Below, one piece after another: positions 6,856 to 31,922 of a DNA stretch of 64,000 bases. The position numbers and the translations under genes were made by a program. The DNA lies in assembly GCA_945946665.1 (NCBI GenBank), contig CAMEWO010000010.1, positions 1,781-65,780 on the forward strand, in the 5' to 3' direction. The notes beneath the pieces are model-generated. The model ran no database searches, was not told where the DNA came from, and saw only the letters and a program-made list of their open reading frames with translations. The DNA comes from an uncultured Eubacterium sp. (GTDB taxonomy: Bacteria > Bacillota > Clostridia > Lachnospirales > Lachnospiraceae). Position 1 is the stretch's first letter. Each line of letters starts with the position of its first letter.

Positions 6856-7566
6856 ATGAATTTTCACGTATTAACCCTTTTTCCAGACATGATTACACAG
6901 GGGCTTAACACCAGCATAACAGGAAGGGCTATTGAGAATGGTCTTGTTTCTATAGAGGCAGTTAATATCAGGGATTATTCAACTGATAAGCATCTTAAGG
7001 TGGATGATTATCCATATGGTGGCGGTGCAGGACTGGTTATGAGGGCTGACCCTATATGCAGGGCATATGATGCAGTTGCTTCCAGACTGGATAAGAAGCC
7101 AAGAGTGGTATATATGACTCCCGTAGGATATACATTTAACCAGAACATGGCAAGGGAGTTTGCCCAGGAAGAAGAACTGGTTATTCTCTGCGGACACTAT
7201 GAAGGAGTGGATGAGCGGGCGCTTGAGACAATTGTGACAGATTTCGTCTCTATAGGTGATTATGTGCTGACAGGTGGAGAACTGGCAGCCATGGTAGTTA
7301 TTGATGCGGTGTCACGGCTGGTTCCAGGGGTACTTCATAATGATGAGTCTGCTGTTACAGAGAGCTTTGAGAATGGTCTTCTGGAATATCCACAGTATAC
7401 ACGTCCTGAGGTTTACAATGGAATGGCAGTTCCGGAGGTTCTGCTTTCAGGACACCATGGCAACGTGGATAAATGGCGGTTGGAGCAATCCCTTCAGCGC
7501 ACTAAGAAGTACAGACCAGATCTGTATGAGGCATATATGGAGCGTACTAAGAAAGATAAAGCTTAG
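6856..7566 (+). CDS. trmD: tRNA (guanine37-N1)-methyltransferase
   Basis: VDDYPYGGGAG, LCGHYEGVDER, SIGDYVLTGGE, LEYPQYTRP. Confidence 0.97.
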   Translation: MNFHVLTLFPDMITQGLNTSITGRAIENGLVSIEAVNIRDYSTDKHLKVDDYPYGGGAGLVMRADPICRAYDAVASRLDKKPRVVYMTPVGYTFNQNMAREFAQEEELVILCGHYEGVDERALETIVTDFVSIGDYVLTGGELAAMVVIDAVSRLVPGVLHNDESAVTESFENGLLEYPQYTRPEVYNGMAVPEVLLSGHHGNVDKWRLEQSLQRTKKYRPDLYEAYMERTKKDKA

Positions 7567-7568
7567 AA

Positions 7569-8282
7569 ATGAGGATTAAAATGATTAATTCTTATGTAGC
7601 ATTAGATATTGAGACAACGGGGGTTAATCCTTCCCTTGATAAAATTATTGAAATTGGAATGGCTAAGGTTGTTGACGGAGTAGTGGTTGACAGCTTTAGC
7701 TCTCTTATTGACCCCAGAACTTCCATCAGTTCAAGGATTACAGAACTTACAGGGATTACTGATGAGGATGTGAAGGGAAAACCTGTTATTGACAGTGTTA
7801 TTGGTTATATTGTGGAATTCACGGAAGGGTTTCCTTTGCTGGGACATAACATTATATTTGACTACAGCTTTATAAAGAAGGCTGCTGTCAACAATAAAAT
7901 AGAATTCGAGAGGGATGGGATTGATACCCTGAAGATGTCACGTAGATTGCTTCCTGATATGCCGCACAAGGGACTGGAGTATCTCTGCGGACAGCTGGGA
8001 ATTAATCCGGGACATTCCCACAGGGCATATGATGATGCGCTTAGTGCCATGGAGTTGTATAACAGGCTGTATGATATTAATCCGGAGGATAGCGGGTTTA
8101 TGCAGCCTGTTAAACTTGTGTTTTCTGTTAAGAAGGATACACCTGTTACAGCAGCCCAGATAAGGTATCTGTATGCACTGCTGGCGAAACACAATCTGTC
8201 GGTTGATGAACCGGTTGAAAGTCTTACAAAAAGCAAGGCAAGCAGACTGATTGATCAGATTATTTCCCAGTACGGCAAGTGA
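7569..8282 (+). CDS. DEDDh 3'-5' exonuclease (DnaQ/PolC-epsilon-like)
   Basis: ALDIETTG, GHNIIFD, HRAYDDA. Confidence 0.9.
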   Translation: MRIKMINSYVALDIETTGVNPSLDKIIEIGMAKVVDGVVVDSFSSLIDPRTSISSRITELTGITDEDVKGKPVIDSVIGYIVEFTEGFPLLGHNIIFDYSFIKKAAVNNKIEFERDGIDTLKMSRRLLPDMPHKGLEYLCGQLGINPGHSHRAYDDALSAMELYNRLYDINPEDSGFMQPVKLVFSVKKDTPVTAAQIRYLYALLAKHNLSVDEPVESLTKSKASRLIDQIISQYGK

Positions 8283-13008: not shown

Positions 13009-13506
13009 ATGATTAATATTGTATTGCATGAACCTGAGATGCCGGCAAATACTGGAAATATTGGAAGGACGTGTGTGGCAGCAGGCGTCAGGCTTCATCT
13101 GATTGGACCATTAGGCTTCAGCCTCAATGAGAAAATGCTTAAAAGAGCCGGACTGGATTATTGGGATAAGCTGGACGTGACAGTTTATGATGACTATAGT
13201 GATTTCCTAGCAAAGAATCCAGGGGCGAAGATATATATGGCAACAACAAAGGCTCATAAGATTTACACAGAGGTAAATTATGAGCCAGACTGTTACATTA
13301 TGTTTGGAAAGGAAAGTGCAGGAATTCCAGAAGAAATCCTTGTAGACAATGAGGATACCTGTATAAGAATTCCTATGATTGGGGATATCAGATCCCTTAA
13401 CCTTTCCAACTCTGTTGCTATTGTGTTATATGAAGCTCTCCGTCAGGGAGATTTTGCGTCTATGAATCTTGAGGGACATCTTCATCGGATGCACTGGAAG
13501 TCTTAG
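13009..13506 (+). CDS. trmL: tRNA (cytidine34-2'-O)-methyltransferase (SPOUT)
   Basis: PEMPANTGNIGRTC, KRAGLDYW, FGKESAG, RSLNLSN. Confidence 0.93.
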   Translation: MINIVLHEPEMPANTGNIGRTCVAAGVRLHLIGPLGFSLNEKMLKRAGLDYWDKLDVTVYDDYSDFLAKNPGAKIYMATTKAHKIYTEVNYEPDCYIMFGKESAGIPEEILVDNEDTCIRIPMIGDIRSLNLSNSVAIVLYEALRQGDFASMNLEGHLHRMHWKS

Positions 13507-27350: not shown

Positions 27351-27839
27351 TTGTCATTTGAAAAGAGAATAAATTATATCAAAAAGAATACGAAGCTTCC
27401 TTCGTATGTTCCACTTCCTAGTAGCATGATTGGGACAGGCCTTAGCTCATCTGCAATGATTTTATATGCAGAACTGTTAAATAGAGCAAGCCTGTCACAG
27501 AAAAATGATATGACGGATGAATTTGGAAATGTATATGTTATCTATCCTATTGATCAACTAAGTAAGCGTCTAAATTTATCAGAAACACAGATAAAGCGTT
27601 TGATTAAGGAGCTTGTAAATGAAGGCCTCTTGAAGAAGAGAAGCGGAGGATTTAATAAACCAAATCACTTATTTGTTATTCTTCCAGGGGAGCAAAAAGG
27701 AACTACTGGGGAGACCACAAATGGCACTACTGTAGGTGCAAAAAAGGCACCACTGACAGTACATAAAGGGCCTACTAACTACTATAACAAAACACTTGAT
27801 GAAACTACTTATACATATGATGAAGGGGAGAGTTTTTAA
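27351..27839 (+). CDS. Replication initiator-like winged-helix protein (RepA_N/HTH type)
   Basis: AMILYAELLNRASLSQKN..TDEFGNVYVIYPI, HTH, KPN.LFV; TTG start. Confidence 0.7.
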   Translation: MSFEKRINYIKKNTKLPSYVPLPSSMIGTGLSSSAMILYAELLNRASLSQKNDMTDEFGNVYVIYPIDQLSKRLNLSETQIKRLIKELVNEGLLKKRSGGFNKPNHLFVILPGEQKGTTGETTNGTTVGAKKAPLTVHKGPTNYYNKTLDETTYTYDEGESF

Positions 27840-27841
27840 TT

Positions 27842-28642
27842 ATGGAAAAGAAAAATACTTATTTAGGAAATGATGGTTTGCTCCATTGCACTGTATGTAA
27901 TGAAGCTGTAGAAGTAAAATTTGATGTTCCTGTAATGGGAATCACAGGTCATGGCAGAATGTGTAAGTGCCAGAGAGAGTTGCAGAAGCAGATAGAGGAA
28001 CGACAGAGACAGCAGGAGGAACATATTAAAAGAGACCGTTGTTTTCCAAGTTGTATCCAGCATGAATGGACATTTGAAAATGATAATGGTCGTAATTCCA
28101 AGATGCAAGTTGCTAAGAAATATGTGGCTAACTGGAATGAAATGAAGAAAAATGGCTTAGGGCTTTTGCTTTGGGGCTCTGTAGGCATTGGTAAAAGCTA
28201 TATGGCAGCATGCGTGGCAAATGAATTGATTAAGCAAGGAGCCGACGTAAAGATGACCAACTTTGCAACCGTATTAAATGATTTATTCAATTGCGAGGAT
28301 AAGAATGAATATATTAGATCCTTATGCAGATATAGTCTTTTGATTTTAGATGATTTGGGAATTGAGCGTAATACGGAATATTCTTTGGAAAATCTATTTA
28401 ATGTGATTGATGCCAGATATGTGTCAGGAAAGGCGATGATTATTACAACCAATTTAAATTTAGAGGAATTGAAGAATCAGAAGCAGCTTAGCTTAAAGCG
28501 AATTTATGACCGAGTACTGGAGCGCTGTATTCCAGTATGTGTTTCAGAGAATGATTTTAGAAAAGATAATAGGGTGGAAGCAAAGGTCAAATTTGGAAAG
28601 ATAATTAATGGGGGCAAGATGGATGAAGAAAAATATGAATAG
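27842..28642 (+). CDS. DnaC/IstB-like ATPase (helicase loader)
   Basis: Cys-rich N-terminus, GSVGIGKS Walker A, LLILDDLG, IITTN. Confidence 0.88.
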   Translation: MEKKNTYLGNDGLLHCTVCNEAVEVKFDVPVMGITGHGRMCKCQRELQKQIEERQRQQEEHIKRDRCFPSCIQHEWTFENDNGRNSKMQVAKKYVANWNEMKKNGLGLLLWGSVGIGKSYMAACVANELIKQGADVKMTNFATVLNDLFNCEDKNEYIRSLCRYSLLILDDLGIERNTEYSLENLFNVIDARYVSGKAMIITTNLNLEELKNQKQLSLKRIYDRVLERCIPVCVSENDFRKDNRVEAKVKFGKIINGGKMDEEKYE

Positions 28643-28913
28643 AGCAATTAATGAAAAATACTTTAATGATCCAGTACAAAATGCAGCATTTATTTGTTGT
28701 ATTGATGTTCTTGCTGAGCTGGTGGAAAAGTATGGAGACAAGGTGTTAGATACTATTTCAGATGGTGTGAATTCTAGTAATGTTTGCGACTATATTTTTA
28801 TTGCAAATGGAATGTCTGTATTATGTGAGGCTGAGAAAATAACAAACGCAGATATTTTAAAAGCATATGTTCAGGTAGCTTACGCTAATGGACTAATTGC
28901 AAAAAGTGCGTAG
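28608..28913 (+). CDS. Small hypothetical protein of the element
   Basis: About 100-aa ORF coupled to the ATPase gene; exact start uncertain. Confidence 0.55.
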   Translation: MGARWMKKNMNRAINEKYFNDPVQNAAFICCIDVLAELVEKYGDKVLDTISDGVNSSNVCDYIFIANGMSVLCEAEKITNADILKAYVQVAYANGLIAKSA

Positions 28914-28928
28914 TGCCTAAAACACAAA

Positions 28929-28957
28929 TTGACACACTGTGGGTTTAATGCTATTAT
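28929..28957 (+). promoter_or_regulatory. Sigma-A promoter flanked by two GTG(A/C)C..G(A/G)CAC inverted motifs
   Basis: TTGACA-17-TATTAT with extended -10 TG. Confidence 0.65.
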
Positions 28958-28990
28958 TGTGACAAATATCAAAATGGCACAGATGTAAGT

Positions 28991-29293
28991 GTGGAGTTGG
29001 AGGCAACTATGATTAATACATTAAAAGAAGCGTTAGAGCGTATCAATGAGCTGGAAGCGGAAAATAAACAGTTACTATCAGAATTAGAGTATTACAGGAA
29101 TAGAAATTATGGAGGTAGAAAGAAACATAATGAAGCGTGGATGACTGCTTATAATGATTTTGTTGTGAAATATGAGGGTGGTATGACTATTATGGAGATT
29201 GTGGCTGAAAGCGATATTAGTAGAAGGACAGCATACCGATATAAAGCCTATTATGACAAGCTAAAAGATGCGGGAAAAAAATCTTCTATATGA
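28991..29293 (+). CDS. Coiled-coil plus resolvase-type HTH protein
   Basis: GMTIMEIVAESDISRRTAYRY HTH. Confidence 0.7.
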   Translation: MELEATMINTLKEALERINELEAENKQLLSELEYYRNRNYGGRKKHNEAWMTAYNDFVVKYEGGMTIMEIVAESDISRRTAYRYKAYYDKLKDAGKKSSI

Positions 29294-29296
29294 TAG

Positions 29297-29320
29297 TTTA
29301 AACCCGTCGAATTCGACGGG
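29297..29320. promoter_or_regulatory. Upstream copy of the KilA-N internal palindrome
   Basis: tttaaacccgtcgaattcgacggg is identical to 29582-29605. Confidence 0.8.
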
Positions 29321-29365
29321 GTAAGAAGTTAAGGTTATAAATTGTGACGTTAAAATTATTGGAGG

Positions 29366-30232
29366 ATGGAATGTATGGCAGAAAATATAAAAAAGGAAAT
29401 AATTCATGCAAATGGATTTGACATTCGTATTTTCACAACTGATTTTGAAAATGAATATTTATCACTTACCGATATAGCAAAATATAAAAGCAATGATCCT
29501 AATGATGTTATTAAGAATTGGATGAGAGGTCGAGAGACATTGGAGTTTCTTGGATTATGGGAAAAGTTACATAATTCTGATTTTAAACCCGTCGAATTCG
29601 ACGGGTTTAAAAGTGAAGCAGGACTTCATGCTTTTACTATGTCGCCTACTAAATGGATTGAGGGAGTAAATGCTATTGGTATAGTATCAAAAGCTGGAAG
29701 ATATGGTGGTACTTATGCACATTCGGATATTGCATTAGAGTTTGCTTCATGGGTATCGGCAGAGTTTAAGCTGTATATTATGAAAGACTACCAACGGTTA
29801 AAAAAGGATGAAAACAGTAGATTATCTTTAAATTGGAATCTTAATCGCGAGATTGCAAAGTTGAATTATAAAATACATACGGATGCAATAAAAGAAAATC
29901 TAATTCCGCCAGAGCTGACAATGGAGCAGATTTCATATAAGTATGCGAATGAAGCAGATTTGCTAAATGTTGCTTTGTTTGGCGAAACAGCAAAACAATG
30001 GCGCGAAAAGAATCCTGAGATTAAAGGCAATATTCGAGATGAAGCAAATTTGAATCAATTATTGGTTCTTGCAAATATGGAAAGCTATAATTCGATTTTG
30101 ATTGAACAAGGGAAATTGATGTCTGAACGTTTGGTGCTGCTAAGAAATCTGGCAGTGAAGCAGATGAGTACATTATCCTCCGCATGTTTGGAGGATATAA
30201 AGAGATTACCAGGAGGGGATAAAATTGACTAA
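29366..30232 (+). CDS. KilA-N domain DNA-binding protein
   Basis: YLSLTDIAK, IKNWMR, LGLWEKLHN, GRYGGTYAHSDIALEFASWVS. Confidence 0.9.
   Translation: MECMAENIKKEIIHANGFDIRIFTTDFENEYLSLTDIAKYKSNDPNDVIKNWMRGRETLEFLGLWEKLHNSDFKPVEFDGFKSEAGLHAFTMSPTKWIEGVNAIGIVSKAGRYGGTYAHSDIALEFASWVSAEFKLYIMKDYQRLKKDENSRLSLNWNLNREIAKLNYKIHTDAIKENLIPPELTMEQISYKYANEADLLNVALFGETAKQWREKNPEIKGNIRDEANLNQLLVLANMESYNSILIEQGKLMSERLVLLRNLAVKQMSTLSSACLEDIKRLPGGDKID
29581..29612. repeat. Perfect 32-bp palindrome inside the KilA-N CDS
   Basis: ttttaaacccgtcgaa|ttcgacgggtttaaaa, encodes FKPVEFDGFK. Confidence 0.95.
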
Positions 30233-31922
30233 AAAGCGAAAGTGTTACATATATACACGTGTATCAACGGCTATGCAGGTTGATGGATATAGTTTGGATG
30301 CACAAAAGGAAAAATTAAAAAAGTATGCAGCATATGAAGAAATGCAAATTGTTGGAGAGTATTCAGATGAAGGTCATTCAGGAAAGAATATAGCTGGAAG
30401 ACCAGAATTTGTAAGAATGTTAGAAGATATTGAGGATGGCAAGGACGAGGTTACTTTCGTCCTTGTTTTCAAATTATCGAGATTTGGACGTAATGCTGCA
30501 GATGTATTAAATTCTTTACAGCTAATGCAGGATTATGGAGTGAACCTTATTTGTGTTGAGGATGGGATTGACAGCTCAAAGGAATCTGGGAAGCTCATGA
30601 TTTCCATTCTTTCTGCTGTAGCGGAACTTGAACGTGAGAATATTCTTGTTCAAACAATGGAAGGACGTAAGCAGAAAGCTAGAGAAGGAAAATGGAATGG
30701 AGGTTTTGCTCCATATGGCTATAAGCTTGAAGATGGAGAACTTATTATAGCAGAGGATGAAGCAGAGACTATAAGAGTTATATTTGATAAATACATTCAT
30801 ACAAATCTAGGAGCTAATGGAATTGCAGAGTATTTGAATACGCATGGTTACAAAAAGAAAAAGCGTCAAAATAATACATTAGATGCATTCGCACCATCAT
30901 TTATAAAAGGCGTTCTTGATAATCCAATTTATATGGGGAAGATGCCTTATGGAAGACGCGCGACAGAGAAAATTCCAGGAACAAGAAATGAATTCCATGT
31001 AGTAAAGCAGGATGAATATTCGCTTTATGAAGGAGCTCATGATGCCATCATTTCAGAAGAAGATTTTGCGTTGGCAAAACAGAAGCGCGTTGATACTGGA
31101 GTTAGATTAAAAAAAACACATAGCCTGGATCACGAACATATTTTATCAGGAATTTTAAAATGCCCGGTGTGTGGTGGCGCAATGTATGCAAACGTGAATC
31201 GAAAGAAGAAAAAAGATGGCACGTATTATAGAGATTTTTTCTATTATGCTTGTAAGCATAGAATAAGAATTGATGGACACAGTTGCGATTATCATAAGCA
31301 GTGGGGGCAGGATAAAGTAAATGCTGCAGTAGAAGAAGTGATTAGAAAAATGGTTAATAATCCAAAATTTCAGACTGCACTTAAGCAAAAAATAGGTTCT
31401 AAAATAGATACATCTGAATTGGATAAGGAAAAAGTTGTCTTAAATAAGCAATTACAGCAGGCTATAGGTGCAAAGAACAAAATTGCTGAGCAGATGGACA
31501 GACTTGATATTACAGATAAACATTATGACCGAAAATATGAGGATATGCAGAATCGATTGGATAAGCAGTATGATGAGATTTCATCATTAGAGGAAAAGAT
31601 TGAATCAGTAAGTTTGCGAATTGATAACCTCCATAAAAACAAATTATCTGGGGAAGCAGTCTATCAAATATTGTTACAGTTTGATAAAATGTATTCAGAG
31701 TTTACAGATTTAGAAAAGAAACGATTTCTTAAATCATTTGTGAAGGATGTATTTGTCCATGAGCAGGAACTCCCGGATGGAAGATTTTTAAAGGGAATCA
31801 AATTCAGGTTCCCAATCTTTTATAATGGAGTTGAAACAGATCAACTTGATTTTGAAAGTTGTTGGGACAAAGAAACGAATGACGAGACGGTTTGTTTGCT
31901 ATCGCGTAAAGCCCAAGTTTAA
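30225..31922 (+). CDS. Large serine recombinase (integrase); last residues ETVCLLSRKAQV are rlmD-like
   Basis: YIYTRVST, YSDEGHSG, SRFGRN, CPVCGG zinc ribbon, coiled coil. Confidence 0.95.
   Translation: MTKKRKCYIYTRVSTAMQVDGYSLDAQKEKLKKYAAYEEMQIVGEYSDEGHSGKNIAGRPEFVRMLEDIEDGKDEVTFVLVFKLSRFGRNAADVLNSLQLMQDYGVNLICVEDGIDSSKESGKLMISILSAVAELERENILVQTMEGRKQKAREGKWNGGFAPYGYKLEDGELIIAEDEAETIRVIFDKYIHTNLGANGIAEYLNTHGYKKKKRQNNTLDAFAPSFIKGVLDNPIYMGKMPYGRRATEKIPGTRNEFHVVKQDEYSLYEGAHDAIISEEDFALAKQKRVDTGVRLKKTHSLDHEHILSGILKCPVCGGAMYANVNRKKKKDGTYYRDFFYYACKHRIRIDGHSCDYHKQWGQDKVNAAVEEVIRKMVNNPKFQTALKQKIGSKIDTSELDKEKVVLNKQLQQAIGAKNKIAEQMDRLDITDKHYDRKYEDMQNRLDKQYDEISSLEEKIESVSLRIDNLHKNKLSGEAVYQILLQFDKMYSEFTDLEKKRFLKSFVKDVFVHEQELPDGRFLKGIKFRFPIFYNGVETDQLDFESCWDKETNDETVCLLSRKAQV

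What the first reader, a model, noticed from the sequence alone, without database searches (positions are those of the whole stretch)
29297..29612. KilA-N gene encodes a motif with a perfect 32-bp DNA palindrome that is duplicated in its own upstream region
Seen: 29581-29612 is a perfect palindrome centred on GAATTC and read as FKPVEFDGFK. 24 bp of it recur exactly at 29297-29320, 3 nt after the previous stop, overlapping a possible -35 (TCGACG-17-TATAAA). From memory, homologues vary here as FNPIEFDGIK, FKVVEFDHFK or FNYGEFAIIK, which could also be encoded palindromically; this is unverified. Inference: selection acts on the DNA or RNA structure inside the CDS. It may be a two-operator autoregulatory loop in which site and protein segment co-vary, or a site for templated diversification. 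I know no description of this.
Basis: partly seen in the sequence, partly recalled or inferred. Interest (0 to 1): 0.75.

Follow-up and report, generated by a model that had tools for sequence, protein, structure and literature searches.

The report
Conserved DNA palindrome inside KilA-N gene
A mobile-element gene for a KilA-N DNA-binding protein (a candidate anti-phage gene) carries a 32-base perfect palindrome in its reading frame. Relatives in many bacterial phyla and phages keep it palindromic through paired codon changes, and free-standing copies sit beside such genes, so a nucleic-acid signal is written over the protein code; what it does is still unknown.

Summary
Window 29581-29612 is a perfect 32-bp palindrome inside a KilA-N gene, and 24 bp recur exactly at 29297-29320.

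- In 97 distinct homologous DNA rows, 94.5% of the 14 stem pairs are paired.
- 7 pairs show two-sided compensatory changes.
- Synonymous variation is frozen in exactly these ten codons.
- Two of the three remembered variants, FKVVEFDHFK and FNYGEFAIIK, exist and are encoded palindromically.

The co-varying two-operator idea fails. Extra copies recur next to these genes as singles or tandem arrays, and also occur in phages. Apart from this element and its near-identical copy, they carry variable arms that differ from the resident internal site. Those arms match the internal alleles of other KilA-N genes.

The protein matches PADLOC defence candidate PDC-S22, and a site-specific recombinase gene often follows it.

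My best reading (about 40%) is a DNA site recognised by the KilA-N protein itself, for autoregulation or for BstA/aba-like self-immunity. Rivals are an RNA hairpin, a recombination or gene-conversion module, and a self-perpetuating palindrome. No binding has been shown.

This scan has already reported the same phenomenon on other DNA: a word search returned 173 notes in at least 162 genomes. I found no paper describing it.

The parts
29581..29612 (.). Internal unit: a perfect 32-bp palindrome. It has conserved outer TTTAA arms, a variable complementary 5-bp segment and a conserved core TCGAATTCGA. It encodes FKPVEFDGFK, residues 73-82 of the 288-aa ORF.
   Evidence: Conserved with compensatory changes in homologues. 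The codons lie in an alpha helix (residues 75-84) in the AlphaFold model.
29297..29333 (.). Free-standing unit. 24 bp are identical to the internal unit, followed by 13 bp of weaker similarity. It starts 3 nt after the HTH_7 stop and ends 54 nt before the likely KilA-N start.
   Evidence: The identical unit is present after the HTH_7 gene in L117 and in L118, which lacks KilA-N. The covariance model scores it 27.5 bits in L001.
29375..30232 (+). KilA-N domain gene of 285 aa, counted from the ATG 9 nt after GGAGGA (the longest ORF starts at 29366). It belongs to PADLOC defence candidate family PDC-S22.
   Evidence: Pfam KilA-N E = 8.4e-19. PADLOC PDC-S22 E = 3.5e-130. PHROG 2657 'transcriptional regulator' E = 5.6e-50. 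At least 8000 relatives.
28991..29293 (+). Small gene with a coiled coil and a resolvase-type HTH (HTH_7). It is the first gene of the putative operon, and its stop codon abuts the free-standing unit.
   Evidence: Pfam HTH_7 E = 4.4e-6. 545 relatives in metagenomes, followed either by KilA-N or by an unrelated gene of about 180-220 aa.
28929..28957 (+). Best promoter-like site: TTGACA-17-TATTAT with TG (11 of 12 matches). If real, both units are transcribed in one HTH_7-KilA-N-recombinase mRNA.
   Evidence: This is a consensus match only.
30225..31922 (+). Large serine recombinase. Its start overlaps the KilA-N stop by 8 nt.
   Evidence: Pfam Resolvase, Recombinase and Zn_ribbon_recom. The same gene pair occurs in about 20 other loci.
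27351..28642 (+). Replication module of the element: a RepA_N initiator (27351-27839) and a DnaC/IstB-like ATPase (27842-28642). This is context only.

Best explanation
The palindrome is one copy of a roughly 30-bp cis-acting DNA unit: TTTAA, 5 variable bases, TCGAATTCGA, the complement of those 5 bases, TTAAA. Genes of this KilA-N/PDC-S22 family carry the unit inside their own reading frame, so gene and site cannot be separated.

I propose that a dimer of the encoded KilA-N protein recognises the unit through its conserved core and outer arms. In this element the internal unit and the free-standing unit 285 bp upstream would then act together. They would either repress the HTH_7-KilA-N-recombinase operon or mark the element's own DNA as 'self', as the aba element does for the KilA-N-like defence protein BstA.

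Shown:
- The unit exists and is conserved at the nucleotide level.
- Compensatory changes override the protein sequence.
- Free-standing copies recur beside these genes.
- The core is conserved even where it does not code.

Inferred:
- That the reader of the site is the KilA-N protein.
- That the site acts as DNA.
- What happens after binding.
For: 1. Constraint on the nucleic acid.
- 94.5% of stem cells are paired and 7 of 14 pairs have two-sided changes. At pair 20-35 all four Watson-Crick types occur.
- 76 of 97 distinct rows keep at least 12 of 14 pairs.
- The ten codons are the lowest-entropy stretch of the gene, with a top-codon fraction of 0.96 against 0.52.

2. Sequence is conserved as well as structure.
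- The core TCGAATTCGA and the TTTAA flanks persist in non-coding units where no codon demands them: L026, L029, L070, L111 and phage LR1.
- This implies a sequence-specific reader.

3. The only gene always linked to the unit is the KilA-N gene itself.
- KilA-N is a DNA-binding domain (Pfam; PHROG 'transcriptional regulator').
- Fungal APSES relatives appear as weak fold matches: PCG2-DNA 4ux5 and Mbp1 1bm8.
- From memory, APSES proteins bind CGAA- and CGCG-containing sites.

4. The units are confined to these neighbourhoods.
- The covariance model finds units only at the internal site and next to KilA-N, HTH_7 or integrase genes in 720 kb of loci.
- It finds only four places in the 2.45-Mb genome.

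5. Non-Watson-Crick cells show no excess of G-U. By haplotype the counts are 11 G-U, 8 A-C and 37 other. This is not what a selected RNA stem usually shows.

6. Precedent and setting.
- BstA has a KilA-N-like domain and a DNA-based, cognate self-immunity element that overlaps its own gene (PMC8585504).
- This protein matches defence candidate PDC-S22.
- In phage EW its homologue sits in the lysogeny module between the repressor/ImmA genes and int.
- The element has its own replication genes, so it would need self-protection.
Against: - No binding is shown for any member. The complex prediction was not folded and says nothing.
- If the 5 variable bases are not read, their strict complementarity is unexplained by double-strand binding. 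If they are read, units in one locus should match, and mostly they do not.
- Most distant homologues have no free-standing copy, so a two-site loop cannot be the general function.
- Both units probably lie inside one transcript, so an RNA role is open.
- Free-standing units often sit directly after a stop codon or between convergent genes, as terminator-like hairpins do.
- In two RNA libraries contig depth falls about two-fold across the internal unit (18.8 to 9 and 15.3 to 8.5), while two DNA libraries stay flat. These are contig-wide means, so the evidence is weak.
- An earlier check within this scan priced the docking-site reading at about 36%.
Confidence: 0.4

Rival explanations
1. RNA hairpin. 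The units are stem-loops in the polycistronic mRNA. One lies between HTH_7 and KilA-N and one lies 210 nt into KilA-N. They would attenuate transcription, block 3' exonucleases or serve as processing sites, setting low levels of KilA-N and the downstream recombinase.
For: - The 14-bp stem is strong (-21.6 kcal/mol, z = -7.6).
- Complementarity is kept through compensatory changes, which base pairing explains directly.
- The only strong promoter-like site lies upstream of HTH_7, so both units would be transcribed.
- Free-standing units sit directly after the stop codon of the upstream ORF in the window, L003, L012, L029, L043, L111 and phig1e.
- Contig depth in two RNA runs halves across the unit while DNA runs stay flat.
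Against: - There is no U-tract, and the scan found 0 terminator-like sites.
- There is no Rfam match.
- G-U pairs are not enriched among non-canonical cells (11 G-U, 8 A-C, 37 other).
- The conserved loop-plus-core sequence would still need a specific reader.
- The depth figures are contig-wide means, and the contig breaks at the palindrome are a k-mer artefact.
Confidence: 0.25
2. Recombination or gene-conversion module. The units are exchange points. Free-standing units act as donors and the internal unit as acceptor, through short-patch template switching primed by the shared core and flanks. This diversifies helix 75-84 of the protein. Alternatively, the units are simply the preferred crossover point between diverged KilA-N genes.
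For: - Free-standing units match the internal alleles of other genes, imperfections included. L111 unit 4 differs by 2 of 30 bases from the FNRVQFEAVK allele. The L003 and L070 units match the FNCLEFEAIE allele, L026 matches the FKRIDFDTFK allele, and phage LR1 could encode the FKPVEFDRFK motif seen in protein P0003.
- L111 has four contiguous units of four different types.
- Alleles are polyphyletic: 31 changes on the tree, and monophyly of the CCCCTC/GAGGGG allele is rejected (AU p = 0.0012).
- L025 is a mosaic with its breakpoint at the unit: 75% identity upstream and 90% downstream to L003.
Against: - Switching is slow. The only closely related DNA pair with different motifs differs in just 4 clustered bases, and the Q/L-allele proteins are about 93% identical to their nearest PV/DG relatives.
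- Most family members have no donor units.
- The contigs showed no joints or variants.
- A 30-nt identical stretch in genes that are about 75% identical would attract crossovers without being selected for it.
- The allele groups were named after the tree was seen, and CAGGTC/GACCTG monophyly is not rejected (p = 0.074).
Confidence: 0.12
3. Self-perpetuating palindrome with no function. Once a palindrome with a 10-bp core exists, replication template-switching within quasi-palindromes copies one arm onto the other. A change in one arm is then either reverted or mirrored. This mimics compensatory evolution and freezes synonymous sites without any selected role.
For: - It explains complementarity in the variable bases in both coding and non-coding copies.
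- It explains the absence of a G-U preference.
- It explains the clustered multi-base differences between close relatives, GGG versus ACC in L030 and L031.
- The mechanism is established for quasi-palindromes in E. coli (from memory: Ripley 1982; Dutra and Lovett 2006).
Against: - It does not explain why the core and flanks keep the same sequence across phyla and in non-coding copies.
- It does not explain why units accumulate in arrays beside these genes and in phages.
- It does not explain why the family tolerates amino-acid changes to keep the palindrome over such long divergence, down to 49% identity (L109).
Confidence: 0.1
4. The upstream copy in this window is only a relic. It would be a leftover fragment of another KilA-N gene, trapped at a cassette junction between the HTH_7 gene and the variable gene slot, with no function of its own.
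For: - Similarity runs 13 nt past the palindrome into what is coding sequence in KilA-N genes (33 of 37 matches). It fits the AGA-AGT-GAA flank of other homologues slightly better than the window's own flank.
- The left junction falls exactly at the edge of the palindrome.
- The same unit precedes a non-KilA-N gene in L118, and degenerate versions occur in L175 and L178.
- Earlier scan reports reached the same reading.
Against: - Units of different allele types occupy the same spot after the HTH_7 gene in independent lineages (window type, L043 type).
- L111 and StB12 hold contiguous unit-length copies with little flanking gene sequence.
- Most non-coding units remain nearly perfect palindromes. 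All this argues that they are maintained.
Confidence: 0.3

Closest known systems
BstA abortive-infection protein and its aba self-immunity element (Salmonella prophage BTP1; Owen et al. 2021, PMC8585504)
   Same: - A mobile-element protein with a KilA-N(-like) DNA-binding domain.
- A short cis-acting DNA element that overlaps the protein's own gene, so the two travel together.
- Variant proteins have variant elements.
- Prophage or lysogeny-module setting.
- This protein is also a defence candidate (PDC-S22).
   Different: - aba is 63 bp at the 5' end (29 bp upstream plus 34 bp of CDS) and is defined by terminal direct CCCGCC repeats. The paper mentions no palindrome or inverted repeat.
- Here the element is a 30-32-bp palindrome at codons 73-82.
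- The PADLOC scan matched only PDC-S22 and no BstA model.
- No defence or immunity phenotype is known for this family.
Origins and operators embedded in the gene of the protein that binds them (phage lambda O gene with ori-lambda; RepA_N plasmid origins inside rep)
   Same: A cis site for a DNA-binding protein lies inside that protein's reading frame, in a part of the protein that tolerates sequence change. Site and protein diverge together between relatives (from memory).
   Different: Those sites are iteron arrays in replication initiators. Here there is a single palindrome in a KilA-N protein with no known replication role. The element has a separate RepA_N initiator.
Repetitive extragenic palindromes (REP/BIME) and terminator-like intercistronic hairpins
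   Same: - Units of about 30 nt that form hairpins.
- Free-standing copies between genes, sometimes in tandem clusters.
- Arms that change in a compensatory way.
   Different: - REPs are genome-wide and extragenic. These units are confined to KilA-N, HTH_7 and integrase neighbourhoods: four places in 2.45 Mb.
- The founding copy is coding.
- There is no U-tract.
Coding palindromes of hairworm mitochondrial genes (PMC6649704)
   Same: These are perfect inverted repeats inside protein-coding sequence, with both arms translated. I read only the abstract, as listed.
   Different: Those are long (up to 284 bp), numerous and lineage-specific. This is one short unit at a fixed codon position, conserved across bacterial phyla and phages.

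Membership tests
KilA-N domain proteins (Pfam PF04383) | Match to the family HMM above the gathering score | tested here: met
   67.8 bits against a cut-off of 23.8, E = 8.4e-19, residues 26-146.
PADLOC phage-defence candidate PDC-S22 | Full-length match to the PDC-S22 HMM | tested here: met
   E = 3.5e-130, 431 bits, profile positions 3-267 of 281.
PADLOC phage-defence candidate PDC-S22 | Demonstrated protection against phage | not testable with these tools
   It is only a candidate family. The single paper found that names it is a genomic survey.
BstA/aba defence with self-immunity | Protein homologous to BstA | tested here: not met
   The PADLOC scan returned only PDC-S22 at E <= 0.001. The shared feature is the KilA-N-type domain only.
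BstA/aba defence with self-immunity | A DNA element in the gene locus suppresses the protein's activity in cis or in trans | not testable with these tools
   This needs plaque, induction or transformation assays as in PMC8585504.
BstA/aba defence with self-immunity | Element anatomy: 5' end of the gene, terminal direct repeats | tested here: not met
   Here the element is a palindrome at codons 73-82.
Intrinsic (Rho-independent) terminator | GC-rich hairpin followed by a U-tract | tested here: not met
   0 terminator-like sites in 28850-29700. Only three T follow each stem.
Known RNA families (Rfam 15) | Covariance-model match | tested here: not met
   The scan of 28800-30400 gave only four weak matches (E 1.8 to 8.7), far below their gathering scores, and none aligned to the palindrome stem.
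Autoregulatory two-operator loop with matched sites | Upstream and internal sites of one locus share the specificity-determining bases across homologues | tested here: not met
   They match only in the window's own element. The arms differ in L003, L004, L012, L019, L026, L029, L043 and L111.
Site-specific inversion or deletion switch between the two copies | Reads or contigs joining the two copies in a rearranged form | tested here: inconclusive
   No joints in 4 runs, but only assembled contigs were available and they break at the palindrome.

The most novel reading that the evidence does not exclude
A self-referential recognition module. The palindrome encodes alpha helix 75-84 of the KilA-N domain, and that helix takes part in reading the very DNA that encodes it. 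Only a limited set of 'self-consistent' alleles would then be viable, which would explain why the same alleles recur in unrelated branches. Each allele would define a cognate protein-site pair. Mobile elements and phages would collect free-standing units of several alleles, such as the four-unit array in L111 and the tandem units in StB12, as immunity or decoy sites against the KilA-N defence proteins of competitors. This would be an arms race written in a coding palindrome.
Probability: 0.08. Interest if true: 0.92.

Novelty: new variant of a known kind. Interest (0 to 1): 0.68.

Why it matters
If the unit is the protein's own docking site, this would be a general and very widespread case of a gene carrying its cis-partner inside its reading frame. 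There are thousands of such genes, from Firmicutes to Bacteroidota, Proteobacteria and phages. The DNA signal would visibly override the protein sequence.

It would give a concrete handle on an uncharacterised defence candidate (PDC-S22) and on how mobile elements avoid harming themselves. It would also explain orphan palindromes in phage genomes.

There are two practical points:
- The perfect palindrome breaks k-mer assemblies, so it generates truncated 'proteins' in metagenome catalogues.
- Codon-based selection tests on these genes will be misled at this site.

Tried and rejected
- Protein-level explanation. I considered cross-strand contacts in a beta hairpin. The AlphaFold model (mean pLDDT 89.8) puts residues 75-84 in an alpha helix, and codon choice itself is fixed.
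- Programmed -1 frameshifting at UUUAAAC. The heptamer is in the wrong frame and the hairpin has no spacer (read from the sequence).
- Strand test by G-U against A-C mismatches. It was uninformative, 11 against 8.
- Upstream copy matching the internal core in homologues. This was absent. That search was too strict and missed units with other arms, which were found later.
- The search for related loci with the diverse alignment A2 failed twice because no conserved stretch was available.
- Read laying returned only assembled contigs. They showed no joints, and the contig ends at 29610 and 29583 are palindromic k-mer artefacts.
- Complex prediction with two protein copies plus the duplex was not folded. 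It gives no evidence either way.
- Sequence search of solved structures gave nothing meaningful. The Foldseek PDB search gave only weak DdrC and APSES matches.
- Literature searches found no description of the palindrome and nothing readable on HK022 Roi: KilA-N with palindrome, KilA-N with serine recombinase, PDC-S22, and HK022 Roi.
- The AU test for the CGTGTG-type alleles did not finish.
Full report
**Observation**

The window holds TTTTAAACCCGTCGAATTCGACGGGTTTAAAA at 29581-29612, a perfect 32-bp palindrome. It lies inside an ORF (29366/29375-30232, +) that matches Pfam KilA-N at E = 8.4e-19, and it is read as FKPVEFDGFK.

- 24 bp recur exactly at 29297-29320, 3 nt after the TGA of the preceding ORF. 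Similarity continues to 37 nt at 89%.
- The 18-nt core occurs twice in the window; 0.02 are expected and 0 of 100 shuffles reach two. It occurs nowhere else in the genome.
- As RNA, the internal site folds into a 14-bp stem at -21.6 kcal/mol (z = -7.6). The upstream copy forms only the 7-bp GC stem.

**Context**

The gene order is RepA_N initiator, DnaC/IstB-like ATPase, a 101-aa ORF, a small HTH_7 protein, KilA-N, and a large serine recombinase whose start overlaps the KilA-N stop. Another first-reader note places this in a roughly 10-kb element integrated in rlmD. I did not check that.

The only strong promoter-like site is TTGACA-17-(TG)TATTAT at 28929-28957, before the HTH_7 gene. Both palindrome copies may therefore lie in one HTH_7-KilA-N-recombinase transcript.

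**The palindrome in homologues**

The family is very large: 8000 of 8000 scored candidates, and 7762 clusters at 50% identity. I collected DNA for 80 species-representative loci, 30 more from a phylum-wide genome search, and annotated phage and plasmid records.

- At 49-100% protein identity the 30 nt are nearly invariant. This holds across Firmicutes, Bacteroidota, Myxococcota, Betaproteobacteria, a Photorhabdus plasmid, Staphylococcus phage EW and a Streptococcus satellite phage.
- Where they differ, the differences are compensatory: CAGGTC/GACCTG (Q-V/D-L), CTGGTC/GACCAG, CCCCTC/GAGGGG, CGTATC/GATACG, CCTATC/GATAGG, TGCCTC/GAGGCA, GTGGTC/GACCAC, TATGGC/GCCATA, TCCATC/GATGGA and AAT.../...ATT.
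- On 97 distinct 54-nt rows, 94.5% of cells in the 14-pair helix are paired and 7 pairs have two-sided changes. Pair 20-35 shows CG, GC, AU and UA. The covariation score is 0.273 against 0.099 in shuffles (0 of 500 reach it) and 0.03-0.12 when partners are slid.
- 76 of 97 rows keep at least 12 Watson-Crick pairs.
- Synonymous variation is frozen in exactly these codons. Among sequences with the majority residue, the commonest codon accounts for 0.90-1.00 (CCC, GTC, GAC, GGG, AGA), against a mean of 0.52 at 186 other conserved codons (p = 2e-7). This is the lowest-entropy 10-codon window of the gene.
FNPIEFDGIK itself was not seen.
- The own genome has a 49%-identical paralogue with TTTAAAGTGTTC-GAATCT-GAACACTTTAAA. 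Its arms are kept but its centre is asymmetric.

A protein-level cause is unlikely. The AlphaFold model (mean pLDDT 89.8, about 97-98 in this region) places residues 75-84 in an alpha helix, not a beta hairpin. In more distant relatives the stretch is one of the most variable parts of the protein.

**The upstream copy**

A copy matching the resident internal core is found only in the window's own record among the 80 loci. Units of the same design nevertheless recur. The design is TTTAA, five variable bases, TCGAATTCGA (or close), the complement of the five bases, TTAAA.

Among relatives at 75% identity or more that are linked to serine recombinases:
- L003 and L004 have AATTGCCTCG[G/A]ATTCGAG...
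- L012 has two units, one a 15-bp-arm near-perfect palindrome 25 nt before the start codon.
- L019 has two units, L026 has a 26-bp perfect palindrome, and L029 has two units.
- L111-L116 have a contiguous array of four units directly before the ribosome-binding site.
- L043 has AAAGTGTTC-GGAAGT-GAACACTTT across the HTH_7 stop codon.

Other observations on these units:
- The unit after the HTH_7 gene is identical in L117. It is also identical in L118, where an unrelated 182-aa gene replaces KilA-N. Degenerate versions follow the HTH_7 gene in L175 and L178.
- Apart from the window's own element, the variable arms differ from the resident internal allele.
- The arms often equal the internal allele of another KilA-N gene. 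L111 unit 4 is 2 of 30 bases from the FNRVQFEAVK allele, imperfections included. The L003 and L070 units match the FNCLEFEAIE allele of L092. L026 matches the FKRIDFDTFK allele of L043 and L050. The L043 unit matches the paralogue allele of L109.
- A covariance model built from the internal sites finds units only at the internal position and in these neighbourhoods in about 720 kb of loci.
- In the own genome it finds four places: the two in the window, the paralogue, and a free-standing AATTCCCCCGAATTCGGGGGAATT after a toxin-antitoxin pair on contig 11.
- Free-standing units also occur in phages. LR1 has a perfect 32-bp palindrome with the new arm ACCGG/CCGGT, between a recombinase gene and int. 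phig1e has one between an ORF stop and terS. D4840 has one between divergent genes. StB12 has two tandem units at the genome end.

**Exchange**

On a tree built without codons 71-84, allele labels need 31 changes. The same alleles appear in separate clades.

- Monophyly of CCCCTC/GAGGGG is rejected (AU p = 0.0012). Monophyly of CAGGTC/GACCTG is not (p = 0.074). The groups were named after the tree was seen.
- L025 is a mosaic whose breakpoint falls at the unit: 75% nucleotide identity to L003 before it and 90% after it.
- A 30-nt identical stretch in diverged genes would attract crossovers anyway, so this shows exchange, not purpose.
- Switching is slow. The only closely related DNA pair with different motifs differs in just 4 clustered bases. 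The Q/L-allele proteins are about 93% identical to their nearest PV/DG relatives.

**What the protein is**

- It matches PADLOC defence candidate PDC-S22 (E = 3.5e-130) and PHROG 2657, 'transcriptional regulator'.
- The next gene downstream is a serine recombinase in 24 of 86 distinct loci, a tyrosine integrase in 4, and a type I specificity subunit in 5.
- The same pairing is seen in phage EW (KilA-N then int, in the lysogeny module), in satellite phage Javan588, and in Photorhabdus plasmid pPAU1 (KilA-N then a 203-aa recombinase).

**DNA or RNA?**

- G-U pairs are not favoured among non-canonical cells (11 G-U, 8 A-C, 37 other by haplotype). This leans weakly away from a selected RNA stem.
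- The core sequence is conserved in non-coding copies, which calls for a sequence-specific reader.
- On the other side, both window units are probably transcribed. Free-standing units sit right after stop codons.
- Contig depth in two RNA libraries falls from 18.8 to 9 and from 15.3 to 8.5 across the internal unit, while two DNA libraries stay flat. These are contig-wide means and the contig breaks are k-mer artefacts, so this is only a hint.

**Verdict**

The co-varying two-operator loop is not supported. Templated diversification is not excluded, but it is slow at best.

I rank the readings as follows:
- A DNA site read by the KilA-N protein itself, for autoregulation and/or aba-like self-marking: about 0.4. 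The closest precedent is BstA/aba, which differs in anatomy and is not homologous beyond the domain type.
- An RNA hairpin: 0.25.
- An exchange module: 0.12.
- A self-perpetuating palindrome: 0.1.

Separately, the window's upstream copy may be just a relic at a cassette junction (0.3). That reading is not exclusive of the others.

The scan has reported this phenomenon before on other DNA: a word search returned 173 notes in at least 162 genomes. I found no paper that describes it.

Noticed in passing
L111:5882-5995 (also L112-L116): A contiguous array of four roughly 30-nt palindromic units of four different allele types. It lies between a 66-aa ORF and the ribosome-binding site of the KilA-N gene, in integrative mobilisable elements that carry a MobA/MobL relaxase and a serine recombinase.
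   Followed up: partly
Own genome contig C11:71169-71204 (outside the window): A free-standing 24-bp perfect palindrome, AATTCCCCCGAATTCGGGGGAATT, of the same unit family. It lies after a Phd/YefM-like and RelE/ParE-like gene pair (my reading of the ORF translations) and before a convergent gene.
   Followed up: partly
Own genome contig C7:42571-43392 (locus L109): A second KilA-N paralogue, 49% identical, with its own palindrome allele: GTGTTC/GAACAC arms and the asymmetric centre GAATCT.
   Followed up: partly
L002:3001 (equivalent to window 29424): In a 99%-identical relative, homology to the window stops abruptly at codon 20 of KilA-N. Upstream DNA is unrelated, so the gene is 5'-truncated at some junction.
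   Followed up: no
L118:1876-2424, L175:1900-2523, L178:1939-2604: In related elements the slot between the HTH_7 gene and the serine recombinase holds an unrelated gene of about 180-220 aa (motif NVSVIKD..GNNIVMINDIIFKGRQAINWEDVE) instead of KilA-N. This suggests a swappable cassette position.
   Followed up: no
L111-L116, gene after KilA-N (starts at 6861): The serine recombinase ORF has different lengths (396 to 649 aa) in otherwise identical elements. This is consistent with an attachment site inside its 3' end, so that integration changes the C-terminus, as another first-reader note suggests for window 31884.
   Followed up: no
window 29583-29610: Assembled contigs of all four public runs end or start at the palindrome, and a separate 31-32-nt contig covers it. 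Many database 'proteins' of this family begin near residues 66-74. These are probably assembly artefacts of the perfect palindrome.
   Followed up: partly
Staphylococcus phages SP197 (7689-7722) and DW2 (13120-13148), hits H48 and H54: Matches of 91-97% to the unit lie inside annotated dUTPase (SaPI derepressor) genes. That would be a second gene family carrying the unit in frame.
   Followed up: no
window 28400-29928: In two metatranscriptome runs, contig depth upstream of the internal palindrome is about twice that downstream (18.8 against 9, and 15.3 against 8.5). Two DNA runs are flat.
   Followed up: partly
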